A stretch of 6,418 nt of DNA from a virus. Taxonomy: Duplodnaviria; Heunggongvirae; Uroviricota; Caudoviricetes. Positions 367 through 6,418 of this stretch are shown one piece after another. A program made the position numbers and the translations under genes. Every line of letters begins with the position of its first letter. The stretch's first letter is position 1. The stretch is taken from positions 1-6,418 of IMG/VR virus record IMGVR_UViG_2703719355_000004; one strand, written 5' to 3'. Below the pieces are notes generated by a model, which made no database searches, had not been told where the DNA came from, and saw only the letters and a program-made list of their open reading frames with translations.

Positions 367-860
367 TGCTGACCCCACAAACAGATTTCACGCTCAATCT
401 CACGACGAGTCATGAGACCTTTCCATTGCTTACCGCCAGCATATGTCCAGCGACGTAGCTGATCACATGCGCCTTTGATATCGCCCTGGTTGATTTTGCG
501 AAGAAGCGTCGATGTTCTGAAATTGCCAGCACCCACGTTGTAAACGAACGAGTAAAGAGCGCCGCGCGTTGTTTCCGGTATATCGACTTTGATGTACGGG
601 TTAATTTGTCTGGCGACAGTGGCAAGGTCTTTATTCAGGAGGGCTTTGCATTCTGCTTCGGTATACGTTTTACCTGGTATGATGTCTTTTCCGGTGTGTC
701 CGTGACATACAGTCCATACACCAACAATATCTTTGTATGGTATGTAGCTGACACCTTCCAGACCATCGTTACCACTTGGACCCGTGATTAACACAGATGC
801 TATAGCAATAGCCCCGCCACCAATAGCAGCAGCAACGGCTTTTCGTAATGATGGAGGCAT
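363..860 (-). CDS. R: SAR endolysin (T4-lysozyme-like muramidase, phage 21 R-type)
   Basis: 165-aa ORF. N-terminal Gly/Ala-rich weakly hydrophobic segment ([19 protein letters not shown]) typical of a signal-anchor-release domain. Catalytic triad spacing E35-x8-D44-x5-T50 ([17 protein letters not shown]) of T4-lysozyme-like enzymes. Start overlaps holin stop (TAATG); GAGGTGA RBS 5 nt upstream. Confidence 0.93.
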
Positions 861-1075
861 TATTCACCTCTCGCAGCCTTTCGTCTGTCTTCTCTGATTT
901 TGAAATACAGATTTGTCAGATAGGTGAGAAAGCCCAACACAAGGCTTCCAAGCACCCCAATCGCAGCCCACTGTGATGGACTGACCTGATCCAACCACTG
1001 CAAAAACCAGTATCCCGCACTACCAGCGGATGTTCCGTAGGCAATGCCAGTTGAGATTTTGTCCATTGATTTCAT
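860..1075 (-). CDS. S: Class II pinholin/antiholin with dual start (phage 21 S21 / DLP12 EssD-like)
   Basis: 71-aa [74 protein letters not shown]. Two hydrophobic segments and a charged C-terminus. Dual-start motif M1-K-S-M4 (antiholin from 1075, holin from 1066). GGAGG RBS 8 nt upstream. Matches the phage 21 pinholin as far as I recall it. Confidence 0.9.
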
Positions 1076-1472
1076 AGCAACGCCTCCGCAAGTAACGGAT
1101 TGCGTAGTTCTTATATTGGGAATGGGGAAAAGAAGGCCGCAGCGTAACTATCACTGATGAATTCAGGACAGCCAGTGGCTACGGCTCAGTTTGGGTTGTG
1201 CTGTTGCTGGGCGGCGATGACGCCTGTACGCATTTGGTGATCCGGTTCTGCTTCCGGTATTCGCTTAATTCAGCACAACGATAAGAGCACTCAGTGCATT
1301 TAAGCCAAGCCCCATAAGGGAGAATGCTCTTACCTGTTGTGCAGACAAAAAACCGCACGGCGGCGGGTTTAAGCTGTGTGGCGAAGTTACCCATCTTTAC
1401 CAAGTATTCGGTAATAAAATAACTTGTGGTGTTCTCATTTTTATGCCGATAAAATAAACGGTCCACTTTCAA

Positions 1473-2405
1473 ATGGAGCGATTCATGATTTTTCTCAGAA
1501 CTGAAAACGGCATCGAGAAACTTGAAAACTGGGAGGAAATTATATCCAGACCAAACTTTGTCACCACTATAGACAAAGGAGTTCAACAACTTGAGGAGAT
1601 AATTGGTTACTACAAATTTAAAGAAGAAATCCACTGTGGTCTAACTGGTTGCAACCAACCACATCAAATGGGTTATATTGTAAAAACATCTAGTGGCATT
1701 GAAACCAACATCGGAAATAAATGTGGTAAAAACGAATTTGGTGTGGAATTTGGTGAAAACGTTCTTAGTTTCAATAAATTTATGCAACTCGAAACCAATC
1801 GGGAAATTATTAGCACCGCAAAAAGTAAATGTGAAGAGTGGCAAAAAAATATTGAAACGATACGAAATATCAAACCCACAATAGATTATCTATCTTCTAC
1901 CATCGAAAATAGTAAAAATTCCAATTACTCCGGAAGACTTGGTGCTACAGAAATTCGTTTTTTGACCAAGAGCCAGACAGGCCTTGTAACCCTTTCTGAA
2001 GTGGAAACTGATAAGAATACCAAAACAATTCTGTTCGCAATGAATGAACACATGCGCGAGTCTGGAGAGGCAATAAGTGAATTCTACATAGGAAAAGTAT
2101 CATTTAGTCATGTTCTTTTACCAGAAAACAATCTTCGTGATTTTTTTGTTGCGCTCAAAGAAGATATAAAAAAAATTCAGTGTATTGATCTACAAACAGC
2201 CCCAAGCCCAGAAATTTCTAATGTTGCCCAAATTGCCAGTTCAATCGAAGAACGAATCAAGCGATTAAAAAAACTGAAACATGAAGCCAGTAAATTCCTA
2301 ACTAAAAAAAATCTGCGTCCCATCGCAAACAAAATAAAATACTCATCGACAGCGGATGAACTTGAATTCCATAATTTCGAACGCTTTTTAAACGGGCTGA
2401 AATGA
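1473..2405 (+). CDS. Hypothetical protein, AT-rich foreign insert in the Q-S moron slot; candidate accessory/anti-phage gene (function unknown)
   Basis: Long uninterrupted ORF (310 aa from ATG 1473; 306 aa from ATG 1485, which has GGAG 6 nt upstream). Only plus-strand gene in the window, convergent with Q. Visibly much more A+T-rich than all flanking genes, with K/E/N/I-rich codon usage. Hairpin terminator directly after the stop. No family recognised. Confidence 0.8.
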   Translation: MERFMIFLRTENGIEKLENWEEIISRPNFVTTIDKGVQQLEEIIGYYKFKEEIHCGLTGCNQPHQMGYIVKTSSGIETNIGNKCGKNEFGVEFGENVLSFNKFMQLETNREIISTAKSKCEEWQKNIETIRNIKPTIDYLSSTIENSKNSNYSGRLGATEIRFLTKSQTGLVTLSEVETDKNTKTILFAMNEHMRESGEAISEFYIGKVSFSHVLLPENNLRDFFVALKEDIKKIQCIDLQTAPSPEISNVAQIASSIEERIKRLKKLKHEASKFLTKKNLRPIANKIKYSSTADELEFHNFERFLNGLK

Positions 2406-2408
2406 TAA

Positions 2409-2426
2409 AAGCCCCGAAAGGGGCTT
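2409..2426. terminator. Intrinsic terminator hairpin (7-bp stem, GAAA tetraloop), probably bidirectional between the convergent genes
   Basis: AAGCCCC-GAAA-GGGGCTT at 2409-2426. On the minus strand the stem is followed by TTATCATTT; on the plus strand it is preceded by an A-run and followed by CTATCAAAATCATTT. Sits 4 nt after the moron stop and about 95 nt downstream of the Q stop. Confidence 0.55.
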
Positions 2427-2519
2427 CTATCAAAATCATTTACGCATTATTCCGCATGCTTAAAAGAATACATGACAGATTCGGACAAAATCAAGTGCAA
2501 TGTCGCAAAAACCCTAAGC
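2427..2519 (-). promoter_or_regulatory. Putative Q-dependent late promoter region (pR'-like, possibly with the Q-utilisation site) between the Q stop and the hairpin
   Basis: Position only: lambdoid pR'/qut lie immediately downstream of Q and upstream of the first late terminator. Weak sigma70-like hexamers on the minus strand (TTGATT, 18-nt spacer, TATTCT with TG just upstream; or TTGCAC, 17-nt spacer, TGTCAT). No strong consensus match. Confidence 0.25.
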
Positions 2520-3350
2520 TTAGTTCACATCATCACCAAAACTTGTCACATTCTGAAAAGCAATATCGGCCTTACGCTCTTCCTGGTGGCAAATGTCAAC
2601 CAGAGAATCAAGAAACGGCTTCCAATTACGCGTCCATGTCCTGACATGTAGCTCGGGTATCCGCTTCAGTACAACTTTATATACTGTGGTAGACGGTACC
2701 GTGGAAAATCCATTTCCGCTGCAACGTTCGCAGATTTTAAACACTGGCACACCACGCTCGCTTGTGGCTTTGCGGTCCAGTACCTCTCCCTTTCCACCAC
2801 AACGACACCTGGCACTTATCACTCCCTTCCCTCTACATACATCGCAAACGACTAGTACAACTTCCGTTACCTCTGTCCATTTCTCCCAATCTGACGGTCG
2901 AACAGCACGGGAGCGACTGGCCCAATATGGTGCTTTACCCCATGGGTATGAAACCTTACGAATGACCTGCTTACGGGGTGTTAGTCCGGTACCACTGCAA
3001 CTATGGCATGTTACGCTGGTGGCCGCCGATCGGGAATACTCAGCAAAAGCAAACTGCGCCAGTACCAGCATACACCAGCCAAATTCACCACCAGCTGCTT
3101 TACGCACATTCTTCGGTGCAATTTCCATCGCGTGACGCGCCAGCGCCTGGACTGCCATCTGCTCATCAGTCTTGCTGATACCGGCCTTCCCGAAGAAGGC
3201 CGCCAGGCCAAACCGCTCACGATTGCTGGTGGTACCAATAGCCGCCATAACATCGGTGCCTGTAAGACGTTCCGGAGAGGTTCCTTTCACATCGTCGCCG
3301 ATATACATTCCCTGAGGACTGAAGTATTTTAGCGATGCCTCAAGCTTCAT
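2520..3350 (-). CDS. Q: Late-gene antitermination protein Q (Q82/933W-like family) with Cys-rich zinc-finger repeats
   Basis: 276-aa ORF immediately upstream of the lysis region on the late strand. Contains TGTDVMAA...FG.AAF.GK and AQFAFAEYSRSAAT followed by CxxCxGxG motifs, which I recall from enterobacterial prophage Q proteins. Four Cys pairs: C115/C118, C169/C172, C182/C184, C207/C210. Start overlaps upstream gene stop (TAATG). Confidence 0.75.
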   Translation of the reverse strand: MKLEASLKYFSPQGMYIGDDVKGTSPERLTGTDVMAAIGTTSNRERFGLAAFFGKAGISKTDEQMAVQALARHAMEIAPKNVRKAAGGEFGWCMLVLAQFAFAEYSRSAATSVTCHSCSGTGLTPRKQVIRKVSYPWGKAPYWASRSRAVRPSDWEKWTEVTEVVLVVCDVCRGKGVISARCRCGGKGEVLDRKATSERGVPVFKICERCSGNGFSTVPSTTVYKVVLKRIPELHVRTWTRNWKPFLDSLVDICHQEERKADIAFQNVTSFGDDVN

Positions 3351-4207
3351 TATTCACACTCCCCAACCAGATTAAGAATAACCGCCGCGCCATTGTCTTT
3401 CATATATTCGCCCTTTCCGCTTGCCAAAAACCAACGACACACCTCCACGGCTTCAGCCCGTGTCACCGGTTTGATGGTCATCAGCAATTTTTCAAGATAG
3501 CGCTCGCGGTCATATACCGATTCGTGATGCTCAGAGTAACCAAACTCATCGCCCTGTTCTTTAGTTGCAGTGTGGCGAACACTGTAGAGCCAGTCCCAGT
3601 AAACAAACTCACGAACTACGTCTGACAATGTATGAGGCTCTGGCAGTACATCACGATAGCCATCAACATATGCCCGGCGCTGATCATCAATTTCATTCAT
3701 ACGGATGCCGTCAATTCTGCCCGCGTTCTTCTCGGCTGCAGTCCAGCCCCAAAAGTGATCGTCGATAAATTTCGGGGAAGACTTGATTACTCGCTCGGCC
3801 TCCACATCTTCGAGAGCTGCCTCATAGCTGCCGAACGTGGCCCTGACTGATGCTGCTTTTTTGATGTTCTCCCGGGCGTTCTTGATTGCCCGGGCCGGGT
3901 TATCCATGCCGATGATACCGAAAGCAACCTGGAAAGGATCTCCACCATTCGCCAGCAGATAACGCGAATAGCGTTCCTGGGCCTCTTTTGGGGAAATTTT
4001 AATTTTCACCAGCGCGGCCTCAGCAGCATCCAGATGTGCGGGTTCGTTCAGACGGATAACCTCCAGCACCCAAAGATAAGCATCAGTCTGCTTATGCCCG
4101 GTGATTCTCCGTTGCTCTGGCAGGGGCTTAATGTTTGCGATGGCGGAGCTGTACGTTGCCGTCGGGATGGTGAATAGTGCTTTATGTTCGTTGTTATCAG
4201 TACGCAT
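3350..4207 (-). CDS. Hypothetical phage protein (unknown function), between primase-like gene and Q
   Basis: 285-aa ORF with flank-like base composition, coupled at both ends by TAATG stop/start overlaps to the primase-like gene and Q. No nucleotide-binding or catalytic motif recognised. Confidence 0.75.
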   Translation of the reverse strand: MRTDNNEHKALFTIPTATYSSAIANIKPLPEQRRITGHKQTDAYLWVLEVIRLNEPAHLDAAEAALVKIKISPKEAQERYSRYLLANGGDPFQVAFGIIGMDNPARAIKNARENIKKAASVRATFGSYEAALEDVEAERVIKSSPKFIDDHFWGWTAAEKNAGRIDGIRMNEIDDQRRAYVDGYRDVLPEPHTLSDVVREFVYWDWLYSVRHTATKEQGDEFGYSEHHESVYDRERYLEKLLMTIKPVTRAEAVEVCRWFLASGKGEYMKDNGAAVILNLVGECE

Positions 4208-5175
4208 TACGCAACCGCCTTTTTCTTATGGAAAACCAGCTCTCGAACCTGATCACCGTTCATGAGCATATTGTTGAAATCATCGTGATCCGGCCAGTAC
4301 ACGCTCACGCGCTGCAGGTCATTCTTTGCCATCAGATTGGCATGAGCACATTCGCAAGCTGCAGCCAGCCCGGTGGCGCTGTTCTCGTCACGGTCGGCAA
4401 AAATAATCAGGTGCAGAACACCAGCTGGTACGCGGAACTTTTTCATAAAGCCGCTGTTAATGGTTGCCCAAGTGTTCACGTTATAAATCTGGTGCGCTGA
4501 CAGCGCTGTTTCGATACCTTCGGCGATACCCAGAGTGCTGGCGACAGGAAACATGCGGATAGCTACAGAACGAGCGTGATCCAAATAGTTATCTTCCTGC
4601 AGGGATTTGAGGCGCTTTGCACTGCTACCGATATCTGCTTTTTTATCACCATCAAGCAGAGTCTGGTGCAGATAGCACAACTCCCCTTTATCGTCCGTAG
4701 CAAGTGAATAAAGAGACTGGAACACACTCCCGTTGTGTCTCTGCCTGGCATTGAACCGGATCGCCTCAGCAGGAAGACTGAATATTCCACGAGAATTAAG
4801 ATACGCTGCGCCGGATGTACCACGCAGTGCCTCCAGTTTTGAAAACTTGCTCAATACCCGTTTGCGTAAGCTGGTGGCGCTGCTGGTTACCGGGATTTTA
4901 ACCCGTTGGTAATCATTACCGATCAGGCGGTCTATTTCGGTACAAATCTCGTTAAATGGCTTCGCCTGTGTCAGGGTGACAAGTTTCATACCATCGCCAC
5001 TACCACATACACAGATCCACGTTCCTGCACCGTCGCGGTCGTCAATTCGGAACTTGCCACGTGCACCGCATACCGGGCATTCACCCTTGAAGTGATTTTT
5101 TCCGGTTATCGGCGGCAGACCGAAGTGCTCTAATATTTCAGGCCAGCGGCCTTTCGCTGCATCTGCTGTTTTCAT
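4207..5175 (-). CDS. Primase-like protein: N-terminal primase-type zinc ribbon plus Toprim domain
   Basis: 322-aa ORF. N-terminal CPVCGARGKF...WICVCGSGDG (C-x2-C...C-x-C) resembles the zinc-binding domain of P4-alpha/TraC-type primases. Toprim signatures: conserved Glu in GIAEGIETALS and acidic DxD-type motif in LIIFADRDENSATG. ATG lies 1 nt after the helicase stop. Confidence 0.8.
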   Translation of the reverse strand: MKTADAAKGRWPEILEHFGLPPITGKNHFKGECPVCGARGKFRIDDRDGAGTWICVCGSGDGMKLVTLTQAKPFNEICTEIDRLIGNDYQRVKIPVTSSATSLRKRVLSKFSKLEALRGTSGAAYLNSRGIFSLPAEAIRFNARQRHNGSVFQSLYSLATDDKGELCYLHQTLLDGDKKADIGSSAKRLKSLQEDNYLDHARSVAIRMFPVASTLGIAEGIETALSAHQIYNVNTWATINSGFMKKFRVPAGVLHLIIFADRDENSATGLAAACECAHANLMAKNDLQRVSVYWPDHDDFNNMLMNGDQVRELVFHKKKAVA

Positions 5176-5176
5176 C

Positions 5177-6418
5177 TTACTGACTCAGACTGTTTATATT
5201 TTTCTGGAGTTGGTGCTTTGCCTGCATGATGCGCCAGGCCTCACTGCCTGCCGGTATCTCACGTCGTTCATCACGTTCCTGAGATAAATCAATCGTTGTT
5301 TGTGCGTTTTCAGTGACCTTCTGAACCCGCTGGTGGCCTTTGGCAAACCGGATCAGTTTGTGTCTGATGTAGTTATTTACCTCAGGGGTAATTTCCATCG
5401 GAAAGTTACTCAGTCCGTCAGGCCACTCACCGAACTTTTCCCGGAAAGTGTGAGCACACCATCCGTCACTGACTGGACGCCCCAGCGAAGCACGCTGGCG
5501 CTGATAAAATTTGATCTGACTCCACCAGGACTGTTTCTCTGCCTTCGTCGACTGATGCTGATTTTTACCCAGCTTATTAAGTTTGCGGCTAGTGTCAGTA
5601 TCAACGTCTTCACCTCGCAGCGGCTTGTGTCCACATTTCGGGCAAACATAGACGCCTGCTGGCTTCATGTAGTGGCATTGGGGGCATTCATGTGGCAGTT
5701 TTGCGGCCCGTTCCTCAACTGCCCGGCGCGCGCTTTCCTCCATGCCGTCAGACTTACCGGGAAGCTCGTCGTACTCGATTGAATCCGGATAACCCAAACG
5801 GTGCACGGTGCCGCTGTGATCGAAGATAAGGCAGGACTCTTTACCCGGTGCGGTGCGCAGCCCACGCCCGAGAGCCTGCAACCAGCGAATTTCGCTTTTT
5901 GTTGGCCTGGCGTAGATGATGCAACGAACGTCACTATCAAAGCCGGCCACCAGAACGCCCACACTAACGATGATTTTCGTTGCACCGGTTTCAAAGCGGT
6001 GAATGATGGTCTGGCGCTCATCTACCGGAGTGTCGGCGGTCATTACCTCAGCGTTAACACCCGCCAGGTTAAACTGGATTGTCAGATAATTGGCGTGAGC
6101 TACGTTGACGCAGAAAGCGATGGTAGGTAAATCCCGACCATTCTCCAGCCAGTTCTGTACGATGTCGCCCACCAGCGTAGAGCCGCACATGATTTCAGCC
6201 AGCTGTGTTTCGTTGTAATCGCGGCCGTACTCAAGCGAAGATGTGGTTTTAACACCTTTCAGATCCGGCTTAGTTGGCGCGTAAAATTCGTATTTACTCA
6301 GATCGCCACGCTGGATTAACTCGCCGATGGTGGTCGGCTTAATCAGTCGGTCTGAACCGCCCCGGAAATCCTGGAGACTAAACTCCCTGAGAAAGAGGTA
6401 AACAGGATGACTAAAAAT
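5177..6418 (-). CDS. SF2 (DEAD/DEAH-like) helicase, C-terminal portion; N-terminus beyond window end
   Basis: Minus-strand frame is open from 6418 to stop at 5177 (the ORF track begins at an internal Met at 6190). Helicase C-terminal-domain motifs are present: VGVLVAGFDSDV, IIYARPTKSEIRWLQALGRGLR (QxxGRxxR motif VI). A C-terminal zinc ribbon follows (CPQCHY...CPKCGH). Confidence 0.8.
   Translation of the reverse strand: MFSHPVYLFLREFSLQDFRGGSDRLIKPTTIGELIQRGDLSKYEFYAPTKPDLKGVKTTSSLEYGRDYNETQLAEIMCGSTLVGDIVQNWLENGRDLPTIAFCVNVAHANYLTIQFNLAGVNAEVMTADTPVDERQTIIHRFETGATKIIVSVGVLVAGFDSDVRCIIYARPTKSEIRWLQALGRGLRTAPGKESCLIFDHSGTVHRLGYPDSIEYDELPGKSDGMEESARRAVEERAAKLPHECPQCHYMKPAGVYVCPKCGHKPLRGEDVDTDTSRKLNKLGKNQHQSTKAEKQSWWSQIKFYQRQRASLGRPVSDGWCAHTFREKFGEWPDGLSNFPMEITPEVNNYIRHKLIRFAKGHQRVQKVTENAQTTIDLSQERDERREIPAGSEAWRIMQAKHQLQKNINSLSQ

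What the first reader, a model, noticed from the sequence alone, without database searches (positions are those of the whole stretch)
2406..2519. Compact Q-proximal promoter/terminator unit shared with the convergent moron
The strong GAAA-tetraloop hairpin (2409-2426) lies about 95 nt downstream of the Q stop and 4 nt downstream of the moron stop. In lambdoid phages pR', qut and tR' sit right after Q. If that holds here, the hairpin is tR' and also the moron's terminator. Q-modified RNA polymerase would then read antisense through the whole moron gene (about 0.9 kb) before reaching the holin, so lytic induction would also oppose moron expression.
Basis: inference. Interest (0 to 1): 0.45.

Follow-up and report, generated by a model that had tools for sequence, protein, structure and literature searches.

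The report
Phage late promoter-terminator beside convergent gene
The 114 bases between the phage antiterminator gene Q and an oppositely oriented accessory gene hold the phage's late promoter, the Q loading site and a terminator hairpin, so late transcription must run backwards through the accessory gene; this is an ordinary lambda-type control unit in a slightly unusual setting.

Summary
The hairpin lies at 2409-2426, three bases after the accessory gene ('moron') stop and 93 bases after the Q stop, and folds far better than shuffles.

- Q belongs to the lambda-Q family (PF03589).
- On the minus strand, 25 nt after the Q stop, lies TTGATT-18-TATTCT. The spacer holds a 13-bp two-block site, and a -10-like hexamer and GG follow.
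- This motif is conserved next to about 45 Q homologues from many enterobacterial genera, while the flanking sequence is not.
- Where a gene is inserted after Q (three loci), the motif moves 0.65-1.35 kb downstream and still precedes the late genes.
- Five Q residues co-vary with the first block of the site.
- 44 of 47 motif copies are followed 29-43 nt later by a hairpin plus T-run, with 27 different hairpin sequences. Control windows give 2.5%.

The window hairpin therefore occupies the position of tR'. Its T-run is good on the Q strand and poor on the moron strand.

The stretch between moron and holin holds only the 3' relic of a DLP12-type leader and a weak second terminator. I found no convincing promoter there.

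The moron (phrog_7003, function unknown) keeps this antisense position across at least two antiterminator families.

This is a new member of a known kind, of modest interest.

The parts
2520..3350 (-). Q antiterminator gene (276 aa), lambda-Q family
   Evidence: PF03589 at E 1.6e-52. PF03589 is the Q-lambda family according to PMC9388147. 31.6% identity to lambda Q over 97% of its length and 41.7% to phi80 Q.
2489..2494 (-). Predicted -35 hexamer TTGATT of the late promoter pR'
   Evidence: Starts 25 nt after the Q stop. Conserved as TTG(A/C)(T/C)T in 29 thinned sequences, mean 1.78 bits. Same position as the annotated pR' -35 of phi80.
2474..2486 (-). Predicted Q-binding element, GTCCGAATCTGTC: 13 bp with conserved blocks at positions 1-4 and 11-13
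   Evidence: The spacer between the hexamers carries 1.49 bits. Q-lambda binds a 13-bp asymmetric site through positions 1-4 and 11-13 (PMC9388147). Positions 1-4 read GTCC or GCAT in two groups that segregate with Q residues 221 and 236-240. The motif follows Q even when displaced 0.65-1.35 kb.
2465..2470 (-). Predicted -10 hexamer TATTCT, 18-nt spacer
   Evidence: TAnnnT in all 29 thinned sequences of the profile, which were selected on that pattern, 1.63 bits. The two hexamers match the sigma-70 consensus at only 8 of 12 positions, below the threshold of the scan.
2443..2461 (-). Initially transcribed region: -10-like hexamer AAGCAT (2461-2456), then GC, then GGAATAATGCG. Candidate sigma-dependent pause element and pause site.
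   Evidence: In every thinned sequence a hexamer beginning 3 nt after the -10 (4 nt in L002) has A at position 2 and T at position 6. It is usually followed by GG and, 10 nt later, by C-G, as in lambda AACGAT-GGGTTAATT-CG. The start site is not mapped. The hexamer lies 3 nt after the -10, against 6 nt in lambda.
2400..2426 (-). T1: hairpin (2409-2426) plus T-run TTTTATCATTT (2410-2400). Predicted tR', also the 3' end signal of the convergent moron.
   Evidence: Fold energies and z-scores. Passes the terminator test on the - strand only. 44 of 47 motif copies carry a hairpin plus T-run 29-43 nt after the -10, with 27 different sequences. Within the moron-carrying group the loop varies while the stem GCCCC/GGGGC stays.
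1485..2405 (+). Convergent accessory gene ('moron'), 306 aa from ATG 1485. The listed ORF starts at 1473. Shine-Dalgarno GGAG at 1475-1478.
   Evidence: phrog_7003, unknown function. No Pfam or PADLOC match. Homologues start at MIFL. GC content 32-39% against about 50% in the flanks.
1427..1455 (+). Promoter-like site of the moron: TGGTGT-17-TAAAAT
   Evidence: Both hexamers and the spacing are kept in homologous loci whose proteins are 58-78% identical. Read by eye, weak -35, not tested.
1347..1400 (-). Relic of a DLP12-type late leader ending in weak terminator T2 (stem 1366-1353, T-run 1352-1347)
   Evidence: About 85% identical to the element upstream of essD in DLP12, which is found in 3343 of 5426 E. 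coli genomes. The DLP12 promoter hexamers are absent here. Listed as terminator-like. The fold is no better than shuffles. A mosaic junction lies at 1346/1347.
1133..1291 (-). Non-coding stretch shared with lambda (the region between tR' and S)
   Evidence: 96.9% identical to lambda 44845-45003. Window 1352-1323 also aligns with the lambda tR' T-run and the bases after it.
860..1075 (-). Holin gene, first late gene
   Evidence: PF04971, P21-type holin S, E 8.6e-36.

Best explanation
The segment 2400-2494 (minus strand) is the late control unit of a lambda-Q-family antiterminator.

1. A sigma-70 promoter, TTGATT-18-TATTCT, starts transcription at about 2460-2457.
2. The Q-binding site lies between its two hexamers.
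3. A -10-like hexamer just downstream is expected to hold sigma-bound polymerase in a promoter-proximal pause, so that Q can load.
4. Without Q, the roughly 55-nt transcript ends at the hairpin and T-run T1 (the tR' equivalent).
5. With Q, polymerase ignores T1, runs antisense through the whole 0.92-kb accessory gene, passes the weak terminator T2 and enters the holin and the other late genes.
6. T1 sits three bases after the accessory gene's stop and very probably also ends that gene's mRNA, less efficiently.

Shown here: the sequence features, their conservation, their linkage to Q, and the lack of an equivalent site nearer the holin.

Inferred: promoter activity, the pause, Q loading, readthrough, and any drop in accessory-gene expression during lytic growth.
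For: - Q is a PF03589 protein related to lambda and phi80 Q.
- The phi80 record annotates the same layout: -35 43 nt after Q, Q site between the hexamers, -10, a terminator about 55 nt later, and a second terminator before the holin.
- The motif starts 1-42 nt after the Q stop in 28 of 31 homologous loci. In the other three it lies 651, 1353 and 1347 nt downstream, behind an inserted gene.
- Information content is 1.5-1.8 bits per position from the -35 through the -10 and 1.4 bits over the next 9 nt. It is 0.7 bits upstream and 0.5 bits further downstream.
- The only five fully segregating Q columns (221, 236-240) track the first block of the site.
- 44 of 47 motif copies have a hairpin plus T-run 29-43 nt after the -10, with 27 distinct sequences. 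Control windows give 123 of 5000.
- T1 passes on the minus strand and folds with z = -4.8.
- Region A occurs in 29 of 5426 E. coli genomes and overlaps or abuts an antitermination gene in every one.
- The element nearer the holin occurs in 3343 genomes with other Q types.
Against: - There are no transcript data of any kind.
- The promoter matches the sigma-70 consensus at only 8 of 12 positions with an 18-nt spacer, and the scan did not list it.
- The -10-like hexamer lies 3 nt after the -10, against 6 nt in lambda. It would overlap the start site, so its role as a pause element is uncertain.
- The window has AAGCAT and an extra GC where most relatives have AATCAT-GG.
- The plus-strand T-run of T1 is weak.
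- In related layouts (DLP12, strain J3, L027/L028) the late promoter does lie beyond an inserted gene, so position next to Q is not guaranteed.
Confidence: 0.8

Rival explanations
1. The working late promoter lies between the moron and the holin (1076-1472). The moron then sits between Q and pR', as in DLP12 or strain J3. On this view the hairpin at 2409-2426 only ends the early (Q) transcript and the moron mRNA.
For: This layout exists elsewhere. In strain J3 only 14 nt separate the Q stop from the stop of a convergent gene, and the DLP12-type leader follows that gene. DLP12 has nmpC before the same leader. Window 1400-1347 is homologous to that leader and contains AAAGATGGGTAACTTCG, which resembles lambda AACGATGGGTTAATTCG.
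Against: The promoter hexamers seen in DLP12 and L002 (TTTACG-16-TATGCT or TATCAT) are absent upstream of the relic in the window. That leader goes with PF06530-type Q genes, not with this Q. The scan found no minus-strand promoter-like site in 1076-1472. The site that co-varies with this Q is at 2474-2486.
Confidence: 0.07
2. The motif next to Q is an inactive remnant and the prophage is defective for late transcription. The hairpin then serves only as a terminator between two convergent genes.
For: The window's hexamers (TATTCT, AAGCAT) depart from the family consensus (TATGCT, AATCAT), and the promoter match is weak. Some close relatives carry a frameshifted moron, which shows decay in this region.
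Against: The same 150-nt sequence occurs in phage phi467, deposited as a complete phage genome, and in several other contigs. The critical positions (TTG, A2 and T6 of both hexamers, both blocks of the site) are intact. Q, holin, lysozyme and the replication genes are full length.
Confidence: 0.05
3. The convergent arrangement is itself a regulatory device. In the lysogen, moron transcription leaks through the weak plus-strand side of T1 into pR' and Q and damps stray late expression. After induction, Q-modified polymerase silences the moron. Together these form a two-way switch.
For: The moron keeps this antisense position, with its stop 3-6 nt from the foot of the hairpin, across protein identities from 100% down to 40%. 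It does so with PF03589 and DUF1133 antiterminators and with four holin families. The plus-strand T-run is consistently the weaker one.
Against: The position is also used by unrelated genes: DUF3800 in L018, and nmpC in DLP12, where the late promoter lies beyond the gene. Many relatives have no gene there, and L002 has lost it. It therefore behaves as a general accessory-gene position. No expression data exist.
Confidence: 0.08

Closest known systems
Lambda Q / pR' / qut / tR' late control unit, and the annotated equivalent in phi80
   Same: Q belongs to the same protein family. A sigma-70 promoter lies directly after Q, with the Q site between the hexamers. A -10-like hexamer followed by GG and a C-G about 10 nt later matches lambda. 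An intrinsic terminator follows in the leader. As in phi80, the leader is short and a second terminator stands before the holin.
   Different: Q is 276 aa against 207 aa in lambda. The spacer is 18 nt. The -10-like hexamer lies 3 nt after the -10, against 6-7 nt. The leader is about 55 nt, against 194 nt for lambda 6S RNA (own knowledge). A convergent gene abuts the terminator, so the first 0.9 kb of the late transcript is antisense RNA.
Accessory genes ('morons') lying antisense in lambdoid late operons: lambda bor (own knowledge) and nmpC in DLP12
   Same: An AT-rich accessory gene with its own promoter-like site lies on the strand opposite to late transcription, between Q and the lysis genes.
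   Different: In DLP12 the late promoter appears to lie beyond nmpC, so nmpC would not be crossed (inference). Here the promoter lies before the gene. Lambda bor lies after the lysis genes, not in the leader.
Bidirectional intrinsic terminators between convergent genes
   Same: A GC hairpin is flanked by an A-rich run on one side and a T-rich run on the other. The flanks pair into an extended stem. The hairpin lies between two converging transcription units.
   Different: The unit is asymmetric. The T-run is good on the Q strand and has only 4 T in 8 on the moron strand. One of the two converging units is a short regulatory leader, not a gene.

Membership tests
Lambda-Q-family late control cassette | Antiterminator protein of family PF03589 | tested here: met
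   E 1.6e-52. Family assignment from PMC9388147. 31.6% identity to lambda Q over 97% of its length.
Lambda-Q-family late control cassette | Sigma-70-type promoter downstream of Q, facing the late genes | tested here: met
   TTGATT-18-TATTCT at 2494-2465, conserved across 29 thinned relatives. This is a sequence test only. Activity was not tested, and the consensus match is 8 of 12.
Lambda-Q-family late control cassette | Q-binding element between the -35 and -10 hexamers, specific to the Q allele | tested here: met
   A 13-bp two-block site is conserved. It moves with Q when displaced. Its first block co-varies with Q residues 221 and 236-240. Binding itself cannot be tested with these tools.
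Lambda-Q-family late control cassette | Sigma-dependent pause element (-10-like hexamer) in the initially transcribed region | tested here: inconclusive
   A hexamer with A at position 2 and T at position 6 is present in all relatives. It lies 3 nt after the -10 and would overlap the start site. The start site and the pause are unmapped.
Lambda-Q-family late control cassette | Intrinsic terminator between the promoter and the late genes | tested here: met
   T1 passes on the minus strand with fold z = -4.8. 44 of 47 relatives have one at 29-43 nt, against 2.5% of control windows.
Lambda-Q-family late control cassette | Q-dependent readthrough of the terminator | not testable with these tools
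   Needs in vitro transcription or a reporter assay.
Bidirectional intrinsic terminator | Stable GC-rich hairpin between convergent transcription units | tested here: met
   -16.0 and -13.4 kcal/mol on the two strands, with no shuffle as stable. The moron stop is 3 nt from the foot of the hairpin.
Bidirectional intrinsic terminator | T-run after the hairpin on both strands | tested here: not met
   The minus strand has TTTTATCA and passes. The plus strand has TTCTATCA and fails my criterion of at least 5 T in 8. Partial termination of the moron mRNA remains possible.
Moron (autonomous accessory gene in a phage operon) | Base composition differs from the surrounding phage DNA | tested here: met
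   GC content is 0.32-0.395 across 1400-2500 and about 0.50 in the flanks.
Moron (autonomous accessory gene in a phage operon) | Present in some related phages and absent from others | tested here: met
   Absent from L005, L007, L008 and phi80. Reduced to a 70-nt stub in L002. Present in 33 viral contigs.
Moron (autonomous accessory gene in a phage operon) | Own promoter and terminator | tested here: inconclusive
   TGGTGT-17-TAAAAT is conserved but has a weak -35. The terminator side is weak on its strand.

The most novel reading that the evidence does not exclude
The antisense placement of the phrog_7003 gene directly against tR' is selected, not accidental. Converging transcription from the gene's own promoter and from pR' would form a two-way switch. 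The gene would be on, and late leakage damped, in the lysogen. The gene would be shut off by Q-modified polymerase once the lytic programme starts. The arrangement is kept across at least two unrelated antiterminator families and four holin families.
Probability: 0.1. Interest if true: 0.6.

Novelty: new member of a known kind. Interest (0 to 1): 0.3.

Why it matters
It places the late promoter of a little-studied branch of the lambda-Q family. That branch includes the Stx2f-converting phage phi467, which carries the same Q, control unit and moron at 99.6% identity, with stxA and stxB downstream.

In those phages toxin transcription would have to pass T1, 0.9 kb of antisense gene and T2. All three depend on Q.

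The comparison also yields a testable pairing: five Q residues against four bases of the binding site. That pairing could be used to probe or re-engineer Q specificity.

Finally, it flags a conserved gene of unknown function that always sits antisense in the late leader.

None of this changes the textbook picture of Q antitermination.

Tried and rejected
- Family assignment. I first took PF03589 to be the phage-82 Q family. PMC9388147 assigns it to the lambda family.
- Region B as the late promoter. I considered 1347-1472 because it resembles the lambda initial transcribed sequence. It turned out to be the 3' part of a DLP12-type leader that travels with other Q types, and it lacks that leader's promoter hexamers.
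- Phage 21 pR' is unrelated in sequence to either region.
- Rfam at E up to 1 gave only three sub-threshold chance hits in 1000-2700.
- The consensus scan listed neither the promoter nor T1.
- My first two terminator scripts missed T1, because the stem extends through the T-run. The third version is the one cited.
- Papers on Stx phages held no mapping of the late promoter in Stx2f phages.

Full report
**Layout.** All genes lie on the minus strand except the accessory gene.
- Helicase-like gene (5177-6190) and primase (4207-5175).
- A 285-aa ORF (3350-4207).
- Q (2520-3350).
- A 114-nt gap.
- A plus-strand ORF of 310 aa (1473-2405).
- A 397-nt gap.
- A P21-type holin (860-1075), a lysozyme (363-860) and the start of an Rz-like gene.

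**The observation.**
- The stem is AAGCCCC/GGGGCTT at 2409-2415 and 2420-2426. The loop reads GAAA on the plus strand.
- Three bases separate it from the ORF stop (TGA 2403-2405). Ninety-three bases separate it from the Q stop (2520-2522).
- As RNA it folds at -16.0 kcal/mol on the minus strand and -13.4 kcal/mol on the plus strand. The z-scores are -4.8 and -3.9, and no shuffle folded as well.
- The minus strand continues with TTTTATCATTT. The plus strand continues with TTCTATCA.
- The consensus scan missed the hairpin. The A-rich and T-rich flanks pair and lengthen the stem through the T-run. A test that allows for this passes it on the minus strand only.

**What Q is.**
- The protein matches PF03589 at E 1.6e-52. 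Yin et al. 2022 (PMC9388147) name that family the Q-lambda family.
- It aligns with lambda Q over 97% of its length at 31.6% identity, and with phi80 Q at 41.7%.
- Prophage and phage Q proteins of Klebsiella, Yersinia and Aeromonas are 60-72% identical.
- The phi80 record annotates a late promoter whose -35 lies 43 nt after Q. It also annotates a Q site between the hexamers, a terminator about 55 nt after the -10, and a second terminator before the holin.

**The promoter motif.** On the minus strand, 25 nt after the Q stop, the window reads as follows:
- TTGATT (2494-2489)
- ttgtccgaatctgtcatg
- TATTCT (2470-2465)
- ttt AAGCAT gc GGAATAATGCG

I collected Q homologues at 43-86% identity. They comprise 24 loci from one-genome-per-species contigs, four phages, two E. 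coli prophages and the window itself.
- In 28 of the 31 loci the same motif starts 1-42 nt after the Q stop. The sequence between the stop and the -35 is unrelated in length and content.
- In the three exceptions (L013, L027, L028) a terminator follows Q directly. The motif reappears 651, 1353 and 1347 nt downstream, behind an inserted same-strand gene. In L027 that gene encodes a ParA-like ATPase.
- The motif therefore stays with this Q clade wherever it lies.

After thinning to 29 sequences below 90% identity, mean information per position is as follows.

| Segment | Bits |
|---|---|
| 25 nt upstream of the -35 | 0.72 |
| -35 hexamer | 1.78 |
| 18-nt spacer | 1.49 |
| -10 hexamer | 1.63 |
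| Next 9 nt | 1.37 |
| Following 11 nt | 0.82 |
| Last 25 nt | 0.54 |

The motif occurs once in the window and in none of 200 shuffles. Region A is found in only 29 of 5426 E. coli genomes, where it overlaps or abuts an antitermination gene in every case.

**The Q site.**
- The spacer has two conserved blocks, GTCC and GTC, at positions 1-4 and 11-13 of a 13-bp stretch (2486-2474).
- This matches the way Q-lambda contacts its site. The helix-turn-helix reads positions 1-4 and the zinc-ribbon arm reads positions 11-13 (PMC9388147).
- Six loci read GCAT in place of GTCC and keep GTC.
- In an alignment of 51 distinct Q proteins, only five columns separate these six loci from the rest. They are residue 221 and residues 236, 237, 238 and 240 (VRTWT in the window).
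- The tight clustering suggests a recognition helix that co-varies with its DNA block. With one clade of six, shared ancestry cannot be fully excluded.

**The pause element.**
- A hexamer with A at position 2 and T at position 6 begins 3 nt after the -10 in the relatives (4 nt in L002). It is usually AATCAT or AATCGT, and AAGCAT in the window.
- It is mostly followed by GG and, 10 nt after its last T, by C-G.
- Lambda has AACGAT-GGGTTAATT-CG with the same internal spacing. Its pause at +16/+17 is from my own knowledge.
- In this clade the hexamer lies 3 nt after the -10, against 6 nt in lambda and 7 nt in phi80. It would overlap the start site. I therefore treat its role as a pause element as likely but unproven.

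**The terminator.**
- Of 47 distinct motif copies, 44 carry a GC-stem hairpin and T-run starting 29-43 nt (median 35) after the -10.
- These use 27 different stem-loop sequences.
- The same test passes 123 of 5000 control windows from the same loci.
- Function is conserved while sequence turns over. The window hairpin occupies this position, 40 nt after the -10.
- The leader RNA would be about 55 nt long. Its T-run overlaps the accessory gene's stop codon.

**The other gap (1076-1472).**
- The last 54 nt before 1347 match, at about 85%, an element found in 3343 of 5426 E. coli genomes. In K-12 that element lies upstream of essD in DLP12.
- In DLP12 and in L002 it is preceded by TTTACG-16-TATGCT or TATCAT. 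The window lacks these hexamers.
- The element accompanies PF06530-type Q genes. In strain J3 only 14 nt separate the Q stop from a convergent gene, so the late promoter there must lie beyond that gene.
- The window keeps only the 3' part of that leader and its terminator T2 (stem 1366-1353). T2 has four GC pairs and folds no better than shuffles.
- A mosaic junction lies at 1346/1347. Phage phi467 and several prophages share 1347-2700 and then diverge.
- Beyond the junction the window matches the lambda stretch that follows tR'.
- The scan found no minus-strand promoter-like site in this gap.

**The accessory gene.**
- It belongs to phrog_7003, of unknown function.
- It probably starts at ATG 1485, behind GGAG.
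- GC content is 32-39% against about 50% in the flanks.
- The family is under clear constraint. The motif HC-x4-CNQPH is invariant, and a CG pair follows 19 residues later.
- A confident model (pLDDT 91.7) shows an N-terminal beta domain and a helical domain. It has no informative match in the PDB.
- In 33 viral contigs, homologues at 58-100% identity are almost always convergent with a lambda-family Q at 44-100% identity. The gap of about 120-190 nt holds a promoter and a hairpin.
- In L060 and L062 the promoter is nearly lambda's own (TATATT tgacatt AACGATGGGC). The hairpin is CCCGCC/GGCGGG.
- Homologues at 40% identity in Serratia and Providencia sit in the same position against a DUF1133 antiterminator-like gene. 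They have their own promoter and hairpin and different holins.
- The stop codon is always 3-6 nt from the foot of the hairpin.
- The position is also used by unrelated genes and is empty in many relatives. L002 retains only a 70-nt stub. I read this as a favoured accessory-gene position. A functional link remains a minority possibility.

**Conclusion.**
The late promoter and Q site lie next to Q, and the hairpin is the tR' equivalent.
- Q-modified polymerase must cross the accessory gene in antisense, and then the weak T2, to reach the holin.
- The hairpin is a better terminator for the leader than for the accessory gene.
- The effect on accessory-gene expression is plausible but untested.
- The unit is a new member of the known lambda-type late control cassette. 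Antisense accessory genes in late operons have precedents such as lambda bor (own knowledge).

Noticed in passing
window 1347-1400 (minus strand): This is a relic of a DLP12-type late leader with weak terminator T2. About 85% identical copies lie upstream of essD in 3343 of 5426 E. coli genomes. The promoter hexamers seen in DLP12 and L002 are missing here.
   Followed up: yes
window 1485-2405 (+); loci L037-L071: The phrog_7003 gene keeps the same antisense position between an antiterminator gene and the holin across 100-40% protein identity. It does so with PF03589 and DUF1133 antiterminators and with four holin families. It carries an invariant HC-x4-CNQPH ... CG motif, likely a zinc site. 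A confident AlphaFold model has no PDB match. Function is unknown.
   Followed up: partly
window Q residues 221 and 236-240 (codons within 2520-3350, minus strand); site 2474-2486: Only five Q alignment columns separate the loci whose site starts GCAT from those whose site starts GTCC. They cluster in what looks like a helix-turn-helix recognition helix. This is a candidate specificity code.
   Followed up: partly
window 2456-2470 (minus strand): The -10-like hexamer lies 3 nt after the -10 in this Q clade, against 6 nt in lambda and 7 nt in phi80. Any sigma-dependent pause would therefore occur unusually early, at an RNA length of roughly 10-13 nt.
   Followed up: no
L001 (phage phi467, LN997803) 1416-5004: The Stx2f phage phi467 carries the same Q, control unit and accessory gene at 99.6% identity, with stxA and stxB downstream of T2. 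Its accessory gene is frameshifted into two ORFs. The same frameshift pattern appears in L063, L064 and L066, and L069 carries a more broken, more divergent copy.
   Followed up: partly
L002 (E. coli 2012EL-2448) 3190-3690: Two late leaders stand in tandem. A lambda-type promoter and hairpin lie next to Q. A 70-nt stub of the accessory gene follows, and then a complete DLP12-type promoter, leader and terminator.
   Followed up: partly
L027 and L028, 216-1265 nt after the Q stop; L013: A same-strand gene is inserted between Q and its promoter motif. In L027 it encodes a ParA-like ATPase. A terminator follows Q directly. This shows the alternative insertion point, before pR' rather than after tR'.
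   Followed up: partly
window 1473 versus 1485: The mechanical ORF starts at ATG 1473. Homologues, the PHROG profile and the GGAG at 1475-1478 all point to ATG 1485 as the real start (306 aa).
   Followed up: yes
window 3350-4207 (minus strand): This 285-aa ORF between the primase and Q has no Pfam match (phrog_6204, unknown function). Its stop overlaps the Q start and its start overlaps the primase stop, which suggests translational coupling.
   Followed up: no
window 1427-1455 (+): A promoter-like site, TGGTGT-17-TAAAAT, lies upstream of the accessory gene. Both hexamers and the spacing are conserved in loci whose proteins are only 58% identical. The -35 is poor, so an activator or another sigma factor may be involved.
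   Followed up: no
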